Source of the DNA: Escherichia coli
GTDB taxonomy: Bacteria > Pseudomonadota > Gammaproteobacteria > Enterobacterales > Enterobacteriaceae
NCBI RefSeq assembly: GCF_003018115.1
Contig: NZ_CP027457.1
Strand: one strand, 5' to 3'
DNA: 64,000 bases
Part shown: in pieces, positions 94-52,456 of the stretch
Layout of the letters: each line of letters opens with the position of its first letter
Numbering within the stretch: the stretch's first letter is position 1
The notes under the pieces: generated by a model
The model's input: only the letters and a program-made list of their open reading frames with translations
What the model was told of the DNA's origin: nothing
The model's database searches: none
Program-made: the position numbers and the translations under genes

Positions 94-430
<337 letters not shown>

Positions 431-7484: not shown

Positions 7485-7568
7485 GTAGGCATGATAAGAC
7501 GCGCCAGCGTCGCATCAGGCATCGAGAGCCAAATGCCAGATGCGGCGTGAACGCCTTATCTGGCCTAC
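7485..7568. repeat. REP element pair (two inverted palindromic units) between ybaL and gsk
   Basis: gtaggcatgataagacgcgccagcgtcgcatcaggcat and gccagatgcggcgtgaacgccttatctggcctac are typical REP palindromes. Confidence 0.8.
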
Positions 7569-14884: not shown

Positions 14885-16816
14885 TCAAATGGGGCGGATA
14901 CTTTCTTCATCCAGCTCCGCATCGAAAAACCGACGCAGGGTCTGAATATTATTATCCGCAATAATGGACTCGCGCGCCTGCGCAAGTTTTTCTTCGTATA
15001 TCGCCTGACGCCACTCCAGCGGCGTACGCACCGCGGGATTATCATCTTCAACGATAGTCAGTTCAACCGTTGAACCTTTTAACATGCTCAACGCTTCAGC
15101 CAGTTTTTGCTGTGCACCGCGGTTGTTCAAATGCCGCTGAGAGGAGCGCAAATGCAGACATACTGCGTTATCACTCTCCTCTTTCCAGGCATTTAAGGCC
15201 ACCTGTTCGACCAGTTTTGGTAGCGAAAGTTGACTCACCTGAGCCGCCCACGGGTCGCGCTCAATGGCTTCTGCCGCCAGCTTCGCCGCCAGTTCCGGCG
15301 TTTTTTCATGTTCCAGCGCTTTTTTCAGCGCCTTCGGTGTGGCGACCACTTCTTTTTGCTGCATCACTGGAGTGGTCGCCTTCCAGCGATACGCTTCTTT
15401 TTTAGCTGGCGCTTTTTCCAGCGCCGATGGCACCGGACGCGCCTGAACGCGATCCGTGACCGAAGCCAGTCTTTCCAGCGCAGCGTTATTCACCGGCCGC
15501 GCGCGGGTAGCGGCTGCCGGTTCACTCTTTTTTGCTTTGGTTGCTCCCTGCACGCGCTGCAACTGCTGGCGCGCCGCCAGCACCTGGCTGGTGGTTTCTG
15601 AGAGCGGTACAGTCGGTGCCTGCTGCGCCGCTGATTGCGGTTGCGGCGGCACCTGGGTTGGCGTCATTACTGCCGTTGGCGCGACGGGTGCAAAGGACTG
15701 GCGTGGCACTTCTGGCTCAGGCAGCGGCATACGCGGATGGAACGCCAGCGCGCGCAGCAGCGTCATCTCAACGCCCATGCGGCGGTCCGGCGCATACGGT
15801 AATTCTTTGCGACCAATCAACAGCGTCTGATAGTAAAGCTGAATATCCGTCGGCGGTATGGTGCGCGCCAGTTCACGCATCCGCAGCTCGATGGCGGCCA
15901 TGTCGTTGCCAAGTGCAGCAGGCGAAAGTTGTACCATCGCAATACGATGCAACAGGCCGAGCATTTCCACCAGCAACGCTTCCCACTCGATACCACGGGC
16001 AGCGGCTTCATTAATCAGCGCCATTACGCGCTCGCCGTTGGCCTCGACCATCGCTTCAACCAGCGACAGCGCCTGATCGTCGTCAAGCGTACCCAGCATC
16101 GCACTGACCGCCTGGGTTGAAACCTGGCCGTCACCGCTGGCAATCGCCTGGTCGGTCAGACTTAAGGCATCTCGCAGGCTGCCTTCAGCGGCGCGCGCCA
16201 GCAATTGCAGCGCCCGCGGCTCGTGAGCGATATGTTCTTCATTGAGGATGTGCTCAAGTTGATGACGAATTTGCTCGACATCCAGCGCCTTGAGATGAAA
16301 TTGCAAACAGCGCGACAAAATCGTCACCGGCAATTTCTGTGGATCGGTCGTCGCCAGCAGAAACTTAACGTGCTCCGGCGGCTCTTCAAGAGTTTTTAAC
16401 AGTGCGTTAAAGCTGTGACGCGACAGCATATGCACTTCGTCGATGAGATAAACTTTGAAACGACCACGCGCCGGAGCGTACTGGACGTTATCCAGCAGGT
16501 CGCGGGTATCTTCAACTTTGGTGCGCGAGGCGGCGTCGATTTCAATCAGATCGACAAAGCGCCCCTGCTCGATTTCACGACAATTATCGCACACGCCGCA
16601 CGGCGTCGCGGTAATGCCGGTTTCGCAGTTTAGCCCCTTCGCCAGCAGTCGGGCGATAGAGGTTTTTCCGACGCCACGGGTACCGGAAAAAAGATAAGCA
16701 TGATGAATACGCCCTAACGACAAGCCGTTCGCCAGTGCGGTCAGCACATGTTCCTGGCCGACGACGTCAGCAAAGGTTTGTGGGCGCCATTTTCGGGCTA
16801 AGACCTGATAACTCAT
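14885..16816 (-). CDS. dnaX: DNA polymerase III tau subunit (643 aa); the gamma subunit is made from the same start by a programmed -1 frameshift
   Basis: ORF 14885..16816 (-); AAA+ Walker A motif GTRGVGKTS; recognised as DnaX. Confidence 0.97.
   Translation of the reverse strand: MSYQVLARKWRPQTFADVVGQEHVLTALANGLSLGRIHHAYLFSGTRGVGKTSIARLLAKGLNCETGITATPCGVCDNCREIEQGRFVDLIEIDAASRTKVEDTRDLLDNVQYAPARGRFKVYLIDEVHMLSRHSFNALLKTLEEPPEHVKFLLATTDPQKLPVTILSRCLQFHLKALDVEQIRHQLEHILNEEHIAHEPRALQLLARAAEGSLRDALSLTDQAIASGDGQVSTQAVSAMLGTLDDDQALSLVEAMVEANGERVMALINEAAARGIEWEALLVEMLGLLHRIAMVQLSPAALGNDMAAIELRMRELARTIPPTDIQLYYQTLLIGRKELPYAPDRRMGVEMTLLRALAFHPRMPLPEPEVPRQSFAPVAPTAVMTPTQVPPQPQSAAQQAPTVPLSETTSQVLAARQQLQRVQGATKAKKSEPAAATRARPVNNAALERLASVTDRVQARPVPSALEKAPAKKEAYRWKATTPVMQQKEVVATPKALKKALEHEKTPELAAKLAAEAIERDPWAAQVSQLSLPKLVEQVALNAWKEESDNAVCLHLRSSQRHLNNRGAQQKLAEALSMLKGSTVELTIVEDDNPAVRTPLEWRQAIYEEKLAQARESIIADNNIQTLRRFFDAELDEESIRPI
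15491..15533 (-). other. dnaX programmed -1 ribosomal frameshift cassette: slippery heptamer A AAA AAG (15527-15533), -1 frame UGA stop (15522-15524) and downstream stimulatory stem-loop (about 15491-15520)
   Basis: The minus strand reads gcaaccaaagcAAAAAAGagtgaaCCGGCAGCCGCtacccGCGCGCGGCCGGtg; the heptamer sits in the zero frame at tau codons 429-430 (..ATKAKKSEP..); after the slip the reading is GAG then UGA. Confidence 0.85.
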
Positions 16817-32345: not shown

Positions 32346-32459
32346 GGGTGGGGGCCCTGCCAGCTACATCCCGGCACACGCGTCATCTGCCTTGGCTGCT
32401 TCCTTCCGGACCTGACCTGGTAAACAGAGTAGCGTTGCGGGAGAACCAACAGAGCCCCC
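32346..32459 (-). ncRNA. ffs: 4.5S RNA, the signal recognition particle RNA
   Basis: The reverse complement reads GGGGGCUCUGUUGGUUCUCCCGCAACGCUACUCUGUUUACCAGGUCAGGUCCGGAAGGAAGCAGCCAAGGCAGAUGACGCGUGUGCCGGGAUGUAGCUGGCAGGGCCCCCACCC, the E. coli 4.5S RNA with its conserved domain IV. Confidence 0.95.
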
Positions 32460-34654: not shown

Positions 34655-35941
34655 TTACGCGTTATAGGCATTCTCGCCGTGACTGTTGACATCCAGCCCT
34701 TCTCGCTCCTGCTCTTCCGGTACACGCAGACCAACCGTCAGATCCGCCAGTTTGTAGCCAATAAATGCCACCACACCGGACCAGACGATCGTAATGGCGA
34801 TGCTTTCCAGCTGTACCAGCAACTGATGGCCCATCGTCACACCTTCAGCGAAGCCCACGCCACCCAGCGAACTGGCGGCAAAAATCCCAGTCATGATACA
34901 GCCGACAATGCCACAAACGCCGTGCACACCGAAGACATCGCAGGGATCATCCACCCGCAGCAAGCGTTTGAGCATAGTAACGCCCCACAAGCCCGCCAGA
35001 CCAGCTACCACGCCGATAATCAACGCGCCGCCAACCCCAATGTAGCCACACGCTGGCGTCACGCCGACCAGACCGGCAATCGCGCCAGAACACGCTCCAA
35101 GCAGAGAAGGCTTACCACGCAGCGCCCATTCACCGAAGATCCAGCCAAGAATTGCCGCCGCCGTTGCGACCACAGTATTCACAAATGCCAGTGCCGCGAT
35201 TTCATTCGCCGTGCCCGCTGACCCGGCGTTAAAGCCAAACCAACCAATATAGAGAATGGCAGTACCGGTGAAGACCATTGGCAGGTTGTGCGGTTTAAAC
35301 GCCTCTTTGCCGAAGCCCACGCGTTTGCCTATCAGATACGCGCCCACCAGACCGGCGATTGCGGCGTTAATATGCACCACCGTGCCACCCGCGAAATCCA
35401 GCGCACCGTGAGAAGCCAGCAAACCACCGCCCCACACCATATGCGCAATCGGAATGTAAGAGAGCGTCAGCCATACCACCACGAAAATCAACACAGCTGA
35501 GAAGCGGATTCGTTCCGCCAGCGCCCCAACGATCAAGCCGACGGTAATGCAGGCAAACGAGCCCTGAAACGCCACGTGGATATACTGATAAATGCTGCCC
35601 ATCACCGCCGTCAGTTCGATGTTTTTTAGCATCAACCAGTTAATGTTGCCGAAGAAGTTGTTGCCCTCACCAAACGCCAGCGAGTAACCGTAAACCACCC
35701 AGAGAATACAGACCAGTGCAAACGTCACCGTCACCTGCGTCAGCATCGACAGCACGTTTTTGCCGCGAATCAACCCACCGTAAAACAGGGCAATCCCCGG
35801 AATAGTCATAAACAGCACCAGCGCAGTACAAATCATCATAAACGCATTGTCGGCTTTATCGGCCACCGCAGGTGCAGCCATTACCAGTCCCGGCAGCATC
35901 GCCAGTGAAGCAAGCCCAGTTTTTATCGTCGCTATCTTCAT
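34655..35941 (-). CDS. amtB: Ammonium transporter AmtB (428 aa)
   Basis: ORF 34655..35941 (-); signal peptide plus Amt/MEP family membrane protein; cotranscribed downstream of glnK. Confidence 0.97.
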   Translation of the reverse strand: MKIATIKTGLASLAMLPGLVMAAPAVADKADNAFMMICTALVLFMTIPGIALFYGGLIRGKNVLSMLTQVTVTFALVCILWVVYGYSLAFGEGNNFFGNINWLMLKNIELTAVMGSIYQYIHVAFQGSFACITVGLIVGALAERIRFSAVLIFVVVWLTLSYIPIAHMVWGGGLLASHGALDFAGGTVVHINAAIAGLVGAYLIGKRVGFGKEAFKPHNLPMVFTGTAILYIGWFGFNAGSAGTANEIAALAFVNTVVATAAAILGWIFGEWALRGKPSLLGACSGAIAGLVGVTPACGYIGVGGALIIGVVAGLAGLWGVTMLKRLLRVDDPCDVFGVHGVCGIVGCIMTGIFAASSLGGVGFAEGVTMGHQLLVQLESIAITIVWSGVVAFIGYKLADLTVGLRVPEEQEREGLDVNSHGENAYNA

Positions 35942-35970
35942 TTTTCGTTCCTGTTGCTGTGTGCCAGAGA

Positions 35971-36309
35971 TTACAGCGCCGCTTCGTCGGCTTCGCCGGT
36001 ACGAATACGAATGACGCGTTGCAATTCAGCGACGAAGATTTTGCCGTCGCCAATTTTTCCGGTGTAAGCCGCCTTACTGACGATATCGATCACTTCATCG
36101 AGTTGGTCATCAGCAATCGCCACATCAATTTTTACTTTTGGCAGGAAGTTGACGCTGTATTCCGCCCCCCGGTACAGCTCGGCATGCCCTTTCTGACGCC
36201 CGAAACCTTTCACTTCGGTGACGGTCAGGCCCTGAATACCAATGGAAGATAACGCTTCACGAACGTCTTCCAGCTTGAATGGTTTGATTATCACGGTCAC
36301 CAGCTTCAT
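35971..36309 (-). CDS. glnK: Nitrogen regulatory protein PII-2 GlnK (112 aa)
   Basis: ORF 35971..36447 (-) trimmed to MKLVTVIIKPFKLEDVREAL, with T-loop residues RGAEY; ATG at 36309. Confidence 0.96.
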   Translation of the reverse strand: MKLVTVIIKPFKLEDVREALSSIGIQGLTVTEVKGFGRQKGHAELYRGAEYSVNFLPKVKIDVAIADDQLDEVIDIVSKAAYTGKIGDGKIFVAELQRVIRIRTGEADEAAL

Positions 36310-36361
36310 AGATCCCCTCCGGTCAGAATTCGGTAATGGTTCTGCTACACGAAGAAGGTAT

Positions 36362-36377
36362 TGCAAGCGGTGTGCCA
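36362..36377 (-). promoter_or_regulatory. sigma54 (-24/-12) promoter of the glnK-amtB operon
   Basis: The minus strand reads TGGCACaccgcTTGCA, a match to the RpoN consensus TGGCAC-N5-TTGCA, about 55 nt upstream of the glnK ATG; an NtrC-like half-palindrome (cgcactatgacagtgca, 36430-36446) lies further upstream. Confidence 0.7.
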
Positions 36378-36489
36378 GAAATGAAAAACGAGAAAGAGAG
36401 CAGGAAGTTAAGAAGATTGAAAATGAAAACGCACTATGACAGTGCACAGTGCGTTACATTTTTGCACCAACGATGAAATATTGCGCTAT

Positions 36490-40036
<3,547 letters not shown>

Positions 40037-50031: not shown

Positions 50032-50114
50032 AGAGCTCTCTCTTAGTTTAATTTCCGCCAGGTAATCAGATGACACGACTGTGCTTCACGCCATCTATTA
50101 ACATGTACGTCAGT

Positions 50115-50149
50115 ATATGGGGATGTTTCCCCCACATTCAACGCCGAGA
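50115..50149 (-). promoter_or_regulatory. sigma32 heat-shock promoter of lon
   Basis: The minus strand reads tctcggcgTTGAAtgtgggggaaacatCCCCATATa, matching the sigma32 -35 and CCCCATnT -10, about 85 nt upstream of the lon ATG. Confidence 0.7.
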
Positions 50150-50151
50150 AT

Positions 50152-50187
50152 AGAGGAAAAATTAAAGGGGAGATAAAATCCCCCCTT
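50152..50187 (-). terminator. Terminator downstream of clpX
   Basis: On the minus strand, hairpin aggggggattttatctcccct is followed by ttaatttttcc. Confidence 0.65.
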
Positions 50188-50218
50188 TTTGGTTAACTAA
50201 TTGTATGGGAATGGTTAA

Positions 50219-52354: not shown

Positions 52355-52421
52355 ACAATCTTTTGTTGTTACGCTAACACCGAAAGAGGCTTTTCGCACG
52401 GTTCCATGCAAAATTCATGAC

Positions 52422-52456
52422 AAAAAAAAGCCCACCACCTGGCGGTGACGGGCCTT
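52422..52456 (-). terminator. Rho-independent terminator downstream of tig
   Basis: On the minus strand, hairpin ggcccgtcaccgccaggtggtgggc is followed by ttttttttg. Confidence 0.8.

What the first reader, a model, noticed from the sequence alone, without database searches (positions are those of the whole stretch)
36310..36489. sigma54 promoter with upstream NtrC-like site driving glnK-amtB
A clean TGGCAC-N5-TTGCA element lies at 36362-36377 on the minus strand and a TGCAC-type half-palindrome about 55 bp further upstream, consistent with nitrogen-limitation control of the PII/ammonium channel pair. The promoter is identifiable by eye without any search.
Basis: partly seen in the sequence, partly recalled or inferred. 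Interest (0 to 1): 0.25.

Follow-up and report, generated by a model that had tools for sequence, protein, structure and literature searches.

The report
Known E. coli glnK-amtB nitrogen promoter

Summary
The window is E. coli chromosome. Coordinates 36310-36489 are the whole mdlB-glnK intergenic region on the minus strand. TGGCAC-N5-TTGCA lies exactly at 36377-36362, 68 nt before the glnK ATG, and is the only exact match in 64 kb. The same 17-mer is the published sigma-54 ChIP-seq and gSELEX site for glnK. Papers read here report an 18.8-fold fall in glnK expression in a rpoN deletion and almost no glnK mRNA without NtrC. The "TGCAC half-palindrome" is a full 17-bp NtrC-type dyad (box A, 36446-36430, centre -87). 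A weaker box B lies 20 bp upstream.

In 120 Enterobacterales orthologues, a GG-N10-GC core is kept in 119 and box A in 117.

Side observations:
- The box A-to-promoter distance changes only in whole helical turns (-87 to about -141), a fingerprint already published for Vibrio qrr enhancers.
- Box A with its flank also forms a terminator-like hairpin plus T-run just after the mdlB stop. Possible dual use is untested.
- A CCUUCUUC tract at -7 to +1 can sequester the glnK ribosome-binding site only in read-through RNA, as already published.

No mapped start site was retrievable.

The parts
36450..36466 (-). NtrC box B (weak), TGCAAAAATGTAACGCA, centre at -107 from the predicted start
   Evidence: Matches 9 of 14 specified consensus positions of TGCACCA-N3-TGGTGCA and has 1 mismatch to GCAnnAnnnTnnTGC. 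It is centred 20 bp, two helical turns, upstream of box A. The same or a similar box lies 20 bp upstream of box A in Escherichia, Citrobacter and several other genera.
36430..36446 (-). NtrC box A (main dyad), TGCACTGTCATAGTGCG, centre at -87
   Evidence: TGCAC-N7-GTGC is an exact match, and 10 of 14 consensus positions match. [TCA]GCAC-N7-GTGC[GA] is conserved in 117 of 119 orthologues. NtrC ChIP-seq and gSELEX signals fall on this intergenic region.
36418..36455 (-). Terminator-like hairpin (stem 36455-36428, AACGCACUGUG/CAUAGUGCGUU, loop CACUGU) followed by a UUUCAUUUUC tail, 35 nt after the mdlB stop. It overlaps box A and the right half of box B.
   Evidence: The terminator scan finds it. 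The fold gives an 11-bp stem of -14.4 kcal/mol, and the region has z = -2.8 against shuffles. A T4-T9 run follows box A in 87 of 116 orthologues, and the stem is 79% paired across 76 distinct sequences against 30-64% in slid controls. No experimental 3'-end data were found.
36378..36429 (-). Pyrimidine/T-rich looping spacer between the enhancer and the promoter. It includes the conserved block TTTTCATTT at 36387-36379 (-36 to -28).
   Evidence: The anchored profile gives information content of about 0.8-1.5 bits at -36 to -28. The spacer sequence is unrelated between genera, but its length changes only in steps of about 10.7 bp. There is no IHF core match with up to 1 mismatch in this spacer.
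36362..36377 (-). Sigma-54 core promoter TGGCAC-ACCGC-TTGCA (GG at 36376-36375 = -25/-24; GC at 36364-36363 = -13/-12)
   Evidence: Established. The sequence is identical to the published ChIP-seq and gSELEX motif.
36351..36358 (-). CT-rich anti-Shine-Dalgarno tract CCTTCTTC (-7 to +1). It is transcribed only in read-through RNA coming from mdlB.
   Evidence: In read-through RNA, 36357-36351 pair with the SD at 36320-36314 with P = 0.80-0.99. In the sigma-54-initiated RNA the SD is about 0.5 paired. This matches the 7-nt CT-rich region centred at -4 that was mutationally defined by Levy et al. (10.1101/086108). Across orthologues the effect does not exceed composition-matched shuffles.
36310..36351 (-). 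Predicted 42-nt 5' UTR. The predicted +1 is C36351, with conserved CGTGT at +1 to +5 (36351-36347) and the SD GGAGGGG at 36320-36314.
   Evidence: The start site is inferred as 12 nt downstream of the GC, as in PMC4591121, which gives a distance of 42. CGTGT is conserved in orthologues at 0.6-1.3 bits. The start site itself is not mapped in any source I could read.
35971..36309 (-). glnK coding sequence (112 aa PII-family protein)
   Evidence: NF007946 equivalog, 236.8 bits. RefSeq annotation is glnK. The 158-aa ORF listed from GTG 36447 is only a mechanical upstream extension.
34655..35941 (-). amtB coding sequence (428 aa ammonium channel), 29 nt after glnK
   Evidence: NF007947 equivalog, 880.5 bits. 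RefSeq annotation is amtB. The scan of 35900-36700 found no terminator-like site in the glnK-amtB gap.

Best explanation
This is glnKp, the sigma-54 (RpoN)-dependent, NtrC-activated promoter of the E. coli glnK-amtB operon.

Proposed mechanism:
1. RNA polymerase carrying sigma-54 binds the -24/-12 element at 36377-36362 as a closed complex that cannot start on its own.
2. Under nitrogen limitation, phosphorylated NtrC assembles on two adjacent dyads centred at -87 and -107, on the same face of the helix.
3. NtrC reaches the polymerase by looping the short T-rich spacer and uses ATP hydrolysis to open the promoter.
4. Transcription then starts near C36351 and yields a 42-nt leader, glnK and amtB.

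Shown directly here: the sequence elements, their positions, their conservation and the identity of the genes. Shown in papers read here: sigma-54 and NtrC occupancy, and dependence on rpoN, glnG and nitrogen limitation. Inferred: the exact start site, which bases NtrC contacts, and looping.
For: - The core motif is exact and unique in the window.
- The window is identical to E. coli glnK upstream DNA, which is present in 5423 of 5426 complete genomes.
- The genes are GlnK and AmtB.
- No sigma-70-like promoter lies in 35900-36700.
- The strict TGGCA[CT]-N5-TTGC[AT] core is kept in 118 of 120 Enterobacterales orthologues with a variable spacer, and 119 of 120 keep a GG-N10-GC core.
- Box A is kept in 117 of 119 orthologues.
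- The box A-to-promoter distance is restricted to whole helical turns: R = 0.84 at a period of about 11 bp after collapsing to 76 units, with 0 of 20000 null draws reaching that value. This is what a looping activator predicts.
- Literature read here: sigma-54 ChIP-seq OS03; RpoN and NtrC gSELEX; 18.8-fold loss in the rpoN deletion; NtrC ChIP-seq peak 1 and loss of glnK mRNA in the glnG deletion; 400-fold higher NtrC-specific activity at glnKp in starved cells; Salmonella reporter rising from 1.1 to 1778 Miller units.
Against: - No mapped transcription start site could be retrieved, and the 2015 ChIP-seq table still marks the promoter 'P' (predicted in EcoCyc).
- The two NtrC boxes are weak matches (10/14 and 9/14). 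The degenerate NtrC pattern is not enriched in the window, with 42 found against 42 expected.
- The published NtrC ChIP-seq interval (471741-471821, which equals window 36390-36310) lies over the core promoter, 60-100 bp from boxes A and B. It therefore does not resolve which bases are contacted.
- The primary footprinting paper (Atkinson et al. 2002) was not available.
Confidence: 0.95

Rival explanations
1. The upstream dyad is, also or instead, the intrinsic terminator or 3' hairpin of the co-directional mdlAB transcript. Read as RNA, the right flank of box B pairs with the right half of box A, and a U-rich tail follows. This would stop or stabilise mdlAB mRNA 35-70 nt after its stop codon and keep polymerase out of glnK.
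For: - The terminator scan finds a hit at 36455-36428.
- The stem is 11 bp at -14.4 kcal/mol, with similar hairpins of -10 to -15 kcal/mol in Citrobacter, Enterobacter, Leclercia and Klebsiella.
- mdlB lies upstream and co-directional in 115 of 117 loci.
- A T4-T9 run immediately follows box A in 87 of 116 loci.
- The stem is 79% paired against 30-64% in slid controls, with a C-G to U-A exchange at a position in the gap between the two NtrC boxes.
- The 29 loci without a T-run keep a different 12-bp box B/box A inverted repeat that is 86% paired, with compensatory changes at the central positions NtrC does not specify.
Against: - NtrC half-sites are complementary to one another by definition, so adjacent boxes give hairpin potential for free.
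- The E. coli U-tract is interrupted (UUUUCAUUUUC).
- The T-run could instead serve DNA bending for a very short loop.
- No Term-seq or 3'-end table that I could read lists mdlB or glnK.
- As a replacement for the NtrC reading, it is contradicted by the phase-locked distance to the promoter and by NtrC ChIP and gSELEX.
Confidence: 0.4
2. The TGGCAC-N5-TTGCA match is a non-productive sigma-54 binding site, and glnK-amtB is expressed by read-through from mdlAB or from a sigma-70 promoter.
For: Many sigma-54 ChIP sites in E. coli are intragenic or transcriptionally silent (PMC4591121). mdlB is co-directional and only 180 bp away. The window-wide chance of one exact match is about 10%.
Against: - No sigma-70-like site lies in the region.
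- Expression falls 18.8-fold in the rpoN deletion.
- The core motif is conserved in 119 of 120 orthologues at a fixed distance from the ATG.
- Read-through RNA is predicted to have its ribosome-binding site sequestered, and glnKp was shown experimentally to silence upstream-driven expression.
Confidence: 0.02
3. The promoter is activated by a sigma-54 enhancer-binding protein other than NtrC.
For: The boxes are weak matches to the NtrC consensus. In Salmonella, a promiscuous activator (DctD250) can fire the promoter from solution.
Against: There is an NtrC ChIP-seq peak and glnG dependence, NtrC gSELEX binding, and induction specific to nitrogen limitation. The dyad half-sites GCAC/GTGC are the invariant core of the NtrC box.
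Confidence: 0.02

Closest known systems
E. coli K-12 glnKp (promoter of glnK-amtB, b0450-b0451)
   Same: It is the same locus. The 17-mer CTGGCACACCGCTTGCA, its position at -68 to -51 from the ATG, the predicted 42-nt leader, the flanking genes mdlB, glnK, amtB and tesB, and the CT-rich tract at -4 all match published descriptions.
   Different: Nothing of substance differs. The window is the reverse complement of K-12 orientation and comes from a strain whose intergenic region is 100% identical to many sequenced E. coli.
E. coli glnAp2 (the archetypal NtrC/sigma-54 promoter)
   Same: It has the same two-part logic: a -24/-12 core plus tandem NtrC dyads upstream on one helical face, acting by looping (one search gives the glnAp2 sites at -108 and -140).
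   Different: The glnK boxes are closer to the promoter (-87 and -107) and 20 bp apart rather than 32. They match the consensus less well. No overlapping sigma-70 promoter (glnAp1) or low-affinity 'governor' sites were seen. From my memory of Atkinson et al. 2002, which I could not read here, glnKp needs more NtrC-P than glnAp2.
Vibrio qrr small-RNA enhancers (LuxO/sigma-54), Brunwasser-Meirom et al. 2016, PMC4740811
   Same: The evolutionary fingerprint is the same: looping lengths in related species cluster in classes about 11 bp apart, so enhancers tolerate indels of whole helical turns. The glnK orthologues show classes at -87, -97, -108, -118, -129 and -141.
   Different: The activator (NtrC rather than LuxO), the gene and the clade (Enterobacterales) all differ. 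I did not find the glnK case in the literature I searched, but the principle is published.
Anti-Shine-Dalgarno 'insulator' in sigma-54 promoters (Levy et al., bioRxiv 10.1101/086108)
   Same: The same CT-rich tract just upstream of the glnKp start is predicted to pair with the ribosome-binding site only in read-through RNA.
   Different: That work used synthetic constructs with a reporter RBS. Here the pairing is computed for the native glnK SD. Across 118 orthologues it does not exceed composition-matched shuffles.

Membership tests
Sigma-54 (RpoN) -24/-12 promoter | GG and GC doublets exactly 10 bp apart within a TGGCAC-N5-TTGCW consensus | tested here: met
   Exact match at 36377-36362 on the minus strand. 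GG-N10-GC is kept in 119 of 120 orthologues.
Sigma-54 (RpoN) -24/-12 promoter | Intergenic, oriented toward a downstream gene at a leader-length distance | tested here: met
   The motif is 68 nt before the glnK ATG and the predicted leader is 42 nt. The same geometry, mostly 64-71 nt, is found in orthologues.
Sigma-54 (RpoN) -24/-12 promoter | No need for, and usually no presence of, a sigma-70 -35/-10 promoter | tested here: met
   There are 0 sigma-70-like sites in 35900-36700 against 0.7 expected. This is a weak test because the scan uses a simple consensus.
Sigma-54 (RpoN) -24/-12 promoter | Sigma-54 occupancy and rpoN-dependent expression | not testable with these tools
   Reported in papers read here: ChIP-seq OS03, FAT 18; gSELEX; 18.8-fold drop in the rpoN deletion.
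Sigma-54 (RpoN) -24/-12 promoter | Transcription start about 12 nt downstream of the GC | not testable with these tools
   No mapped start site was retrievable, and EcoCyc status was 'predicted' in the 2015 table. Indirect support: CGTGT is conserved at the predicted +1 to +5.
NtrC (NRI) enhancer / upstream activating sequence | 17-bp dyad resembling TGCACCA-N3-TGGTGCA | tested here: met
   Box A TGCACTGTCATAGTGCG matches 10 of 14 positions, with both GCAC and GTGC cores intact. Box B matches 9 of 14. The GCAC/GTGC cores are invariant in 105 distinct orthologous sequences.
NtrC (NRI) enhancer / upstream activating sequence | Two or more sites on the same helical face, about 80-150 bp upstream of the promoter | tested here: met
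   The centres are at -87 and -107, 20 bp apart. In orthologues box A lies at -87 to -144, in phase-locked classes.
NtrC (NRI) enhancer / upstream activating sequence | NtrC binding and glnG-dependent, nitrogen-limitation-induced expression | not testable with these tools
   Reported in papers read here: NtrC ChIP-seq peak 1, 39.7-fold, and loss of glnK mRNA in the glnG deletion; NtrC gSELEX. ChIP resolution does not pin the contact to boxes A and B.
Intrinsic (Rho-independent) terminator (of mdlAB) | Stable G+C-containing stem-loop shortly after a co-directional stop codon | tested here: met
   An 11-bp stem of -14.4 kcal/mol starts 35 nt after the mdlB TGA.
Intrinsic (Rho-independent) terminator (of mdlAB) | Uninterrupted U-tract immediately after the stem | tested here: inconclusive
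   E. coli has UUUUCAUUUUC, which is interrupted. Many relatives have T6-T9. 29 of 116 loci have no T-run.
Intrinsic (Rho-independent) terminator (of mdlAB) | RNA 3' ends mapping to the U-tract | not testable with these tools
   The supplementary tables of two Term-seq papers that are held as text do not mention mdlB or glnK. For three other papers no supplements are held.
Anti-SD read-through insulator of sigma-54 promoters | CT-rich tract upstream of the start site that pairs with the downstream SD only in read-through RNA | tested here: inconclusive
   In E. coli, SD pairing is P = 0.80-0.99 in read-through RNA against about 0.5 in the native transcript. Across 118 orthologues read-through gives 0.79, native 0.51 and composition-matched shuffle 0.78, p = 0.33.

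The most novel reading that the evidence does not exclude
The glnK enhancer may be a dual-use sequence. As double-stranded DNA it would be the NtrC binding site. As RNA transcribed from the upstream mdlAB operon, the same bases would fold into that operon's terminator or 3' hairpin. The anti-SD tract at the start site would act as a second barrier. Together these would isolate a tightly nitrogen-gated operon from a constitutive neighbour 180 bp away. Evolution has meanwhile trimmed the loop between enhancer and promoter only in whole helical turns.
Probability: 0.4. Interest if true: 0.35.

Novelty: already known. Interest (0 to 1): 0.12.

Why it matters
GlnK and AmtB gate ammonium uptake and nitrogen signalling, and glnKp is a standard reporter of NtrC activity, so identifying it correctly matters for annotation. 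It adds no new biology. The comparative side results are modest. They give a clean natural example of helical-phase constraint on a bacterial enhancer, and a testable suggestion that an activator site doubles as the neighbouring operon's terminator.

Tried and rejected
- **Primary sources not held.** Atkinson et al. 2002 (PMC135341) and the van Heeswijk 2013 review (PMC3973380) are not in the library. The documented footprint and any mapped start site could therefore not be read.
- **No 3'-end data.** I looked for mdlB 3' ends or glnK starts in Term-seq and operon-architecture supplements (PMC7815308, PMC6061677, PMC9023263, PMC12207403, PMC4161252). There were no mentions, or no supplements were held. 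ChIP-exo supplements of PMC9853098 are not held.
- **Third NtrC-like box inside mdlB (36648-36632) rejected.** It matches 11 of 14 positions, better than boxes A or B. However, it encodes the conserved D-T-I-L-V-L motif, and its synonymous positions vary freely in orthologues.
- **Slippage rejected as the cause of the spacing classes.** Spacer sequences are unrelated between genera and fall into 73 sequence clusters, yet the periodicity persists.
- **Conserved, specific anti-SD:SD pairing not supported.** Across orthologues it does not exceed composition-matched shuffles.
- **No IHF site in the loop**.
- **Gene context cannot separate the terminator and NtrC readings.** mdlB is upstream in nearly all loci.
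- **The degenerate NtrC pattern alone has no discriminating power** in the window, with 42 found against 42 expected.

Full report
**What is there.** On the minus strand, the stretch 36489-36310 runs from the mdlB stop codon (TGA, 36492-36490) to the ATG of a 112-aa ORF at 36309. That ORF is GlnK (NF007946 equivalog, 236.8 bits against a cut-off of 181). The next ORF, 29 nt later, is AmtB (NF007947, 880.5 bits). The upstream ORF is MdlB/SmdB, and tesB lies downstream on the other strand. A 311-nt query across the region is 100% identical to many E. coli chromosomes and is present in 5423 of 5426 complete E. coli genomes, annotated mdlB | glnK. The window is therefore E. coli chromosome in the reverse of K-12 orientation. 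The conversion is U00096.2 coordinate = 471822 + (36309 - window position).

**Checking the observation.** This is the only exact TGGCAC-N5-TTGCA in 64 kb, against 0.12 expected, and 10 of 100 shuffles gave at least one match. Relaxed to two mismatches the pattern is not enriched. The count alone is thus only suggestive, and the case rests on position and conservation. The 'TGCAC half-palindrome' is in fact a complete 17-bp dyad, TGCACTGTCATAGTGCG, at 36446-36430 (box A). A second, weaker box, TGCAAAAATGTAACGCA, lies at 36466-36450 (box B), centred exactly 20 bp further upstream. Taking the C of the GC doublet (36363) as -12, the predicted start is C36351. The boxes are then centred at -87 and -107, and the leader is 42 nt long.

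**Independent test by comparison.** I collected 120 orthologous glnK loci from Enterobacterales genomes using a degenerate pattern for the GlnK N-terminus. They span Escherichia, Citrobacter, Salmonella, Enterobacter, Klebsiella, Pantoea, Erwinia, Serratia, Yersinia, Dickeya and others.
- TGGCA[CT]-N5-TTGC[AT] is present in 118 of 120, usually 64-71 nt before the ATG, and the five spacer bases vary freely.
- Of the two exceptions, one has TTGCC, which is still GG-N10-GC. The other (Kluyvera genomosp. 3, L074) has a spacer one base short.
- An anchored profile shows three further conserved blocks: TTTTCATTT at -36 to -28, the core itself, and CGTGT at +1 to +5, which is where initiation is predicted.
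- Box A ([TCA]GCAC-N7-GTGC[GA]) is found in 117 of 119 loci.
- No sigma-70-like promoter is detected in the region.

**What the literature already says.**
- The identical 17-mer CTGGCACACCGCTTGCA is sigma-54 ChIP-seq site OS03 for glnK, with the predicted start 42 nt before the gene (PMC4591121).
- It is the RpoN gSELEX motif for the mdlB>glnK spacer, which also binds NtrC in vitro (PMC8743547).
- It is listed among 18 known sigma-54 promoters at -68 to -51, with an 18.8-fold fall in the rpoN deletion (PMC2831329).
- NtrC ChIP-seq peak 1 in nitrogen-starved cells is glnK-amtB, and glnK mRNA is not readily detected without glnG (PMC4066584).
- NtrC-specific activity at glnKp is 400-fold higher in starved cells (PMC3870243).
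- The Salmonella glnKamtB-lacZ fusion goes from 1.1 to 1778 Miller units on nitrogen limitation (PMC3844500).

Three caveats remain. I could not retrieve a mapped start site, and the 2015 table marks the promoter as 'predicted' in EcoCyc. The NtrC ChIP interval (window 36390-36310) sits over the core promoter rather than over boxes A and B, so it does not resolve the contacts. The primary footprinting paper was not available.

**Mechanism.** Sigma-54 holoenzyme forms a closed complex on the -24/-12 element. Phosphorylated NtrC oligomerises on boxes A and B, loops the short T-rich spacer and opens the promoter using ATP. This is established knowledge of the NtrC/sigma-54 class, and it is inferred for this sequence. 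Looping over only about 60 bp of intervening DNA implies that helical phase should matter, and the orthologues show exactly that. The box A-to-start distances fall into six tight classes: -87 (8 loci), -97/-98 (13), -107 to -109 (11), -117 to -119 (10), -128 to -131 (16) and -138 to -144 (59). Nothing lies between the classes.

Spacer sequences are unrelated between genera, and single genera occupy several classes: Citrobacter has -97, -118/-119, -130 and -140, and Enterobacter has -97, -108/-109 and -140. After collapsing to 73 spacer-sequence clusters, coherence is R = 0.84 at a period of about 11 bp. For the shortened lineages alone it is R = 0.93 at 10.7 bp. In both cases 0 of 20000 uniform null draws reach the observed value. 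E. coli has the shortest loop. This fingerprint was already published for 61 Vibrio qrr/LuxO enhancers (PMC4740811), so it is a new example of a known principle. No IHF core site lies in the loop.

**A second reading of the dyad.** The terminator scan flags 36455-36428, where AACGCACUGUG pairs with CAUAGUGCGUU (11 bp, -14.4 kcal/mol) and UUUCAUUUUC follows. The stem begins 35 nt after the mdlB stop. mdlB is upstream and co-directional in 115 of 117 loci. In 87 of 116 loci box A is followed at once by T4-T9. Across 76 distinct sequences of that group the stem is 79% paired, against 30-64% in slid controls, and it shows a C-G/U-A exchange at a position in the gap between the two NtrC boxes. The 29 loci without a T-run (Pantoea, Erwinia, Yersinia, Dickeya, Serratia and others) instead keep a 12-bp inverted repeat of box B against box A. 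That repeat is 86% paired, with compensatory changes at central positions that NtrC does not specify.

This fits an RNA hairpin at the 3' end of mdlAB mRNA that shares its bases with the NtrC enhancer. However, adjacent NtrC half-sites are complementary by nature, and the T-run might instead aid DNA bending. No 3'-end data were available. I rate dual use at about 0.4.

**The published insulator.** Levy et al. showed that glnKp silences expression driven from upstream through a CT-rich tract centred at -4, which acts as an anti-Shine-Dalgarno. On the native sequence, read-through RNA pairs the glnK SD (36320-36314) with CCUUCUU (36357-36351) at P = 0.80-0.99. The sigma-54-initiated RNA lacks that tract and leaves the SD about half paired. 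Across 118 orthologues the read-through RNA is more sequestered than the native RNA (0.79 against 0.51), but composition-matched shuffles do equally well (0.78, p = 0.33). The effect is therefore compositional rather than a conserved specific pairing.

**Verdict.** Interest is low. The only open, mildly novel point is whether the enhancer doubles as the mdlAB terminator.

Noticed in passing
L002-L121 (orthologous glnK loci); window 36378-36429 for the E. coli spacer: The distance from NtrC box A to the sigma-54 promoter takes only values about one helical turn apart (-87, -97, -108, -118, -129, -141) across 117 Enterobacterales. Spacer sequences are unrelated, and the changes occurred repeatedly within genera. 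E. coli has the shortest loop.
   Followed up: yes
window 36418-36455 (-): NtrC box A plus the flank of box B folds into a terminator-like hairpin with a U-rich tail 35 nt after the mdlB stop. The T-run after box A is conserved in most Enterobacteriaceae. Pantoea, Yersinia and similar genera keep a different 12-bp box B/box A inverted repeat with compensatory changes.
   Followed up: partly
L004-L120, about 62 bp upstream of box A; window 36482-36498 for the E. coli counterpart: Many genera carry a third, distal NtrC-like box (for example TGCACCAAAATCAGGCA) exactly 62 bp upstream of box A, starting right after the mdlB stop codon. E. coli lacks it. E. coli has only a GCGC-type dyad, AGCGCCTGAATAGCGCA (9/14), overlapping the mdlB stop, 52 bp upstream of box A.
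   Followed up: partly
window 36632-36648 (-), inside mdlB: A sequence that matches the NtrC consensus better than boxes A or B (gACACCATTCTGGTGCt, 11/14). It encodes the conserved D-T-I-L-V-L motif of the ABC ATPase, and its synonymous sites vary freely in orthologues, so it is most likely a coding by-product.
   Followed up: yes
window 52407-52422 (-): TGTCATGAATTTTGCA is a 2-mismatch sigma-54-like site. It matches the published sigma-54 ChIP-seq site OS02 (TTGTCATGAATTTTGCA) upstream of clpP in E. coli K-12, and the homologous Salmonella site is also reported.
   Followed up: partly
window 36310-36340 (-) and orthologues: The distal part of the glnK leader (ACCGAATTCTGACCGGAGGGGATCT before the ATG) looks nearly invariant across many Enterobacteriaceae genera, while the first 15-20 nt of the leader vary. 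Conservation seems to extend beyond the Shine-Dalgarno itself. It was not quantified.
   Followed up: no
L074 (Kluyvera genomosp. 3 strain YDC799): The glnK promoter reads TGGCACGCCCTTGCT, with a 4-base instead of 5-base spacer, which should inactivate a sigma-54 promoter. It is either a real lesion or an assembly error.
   Followed up: no
window 35971-36447 (-): The mechanical ORF list shows a 158-aa ORF from GTG 36447 that runs through the promoter into glnK. It is an artefact of the first-start rule, and the real glnK starts at ATG 36309.
   Followed up: yes
window 148-427, 1725-1808, 7488-7565, 15488-15552, 32355-32451, 50103-50198: Rfam gathering-score hits elsewhere in the window: naRNA4 repeat copies (148-427 and 7488-7565), sroB, the DnaX frameshift element, the SRP RNA (ffs) and sraA. 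All are expected for this part of the E. coli chromosome.
   Followed up: no
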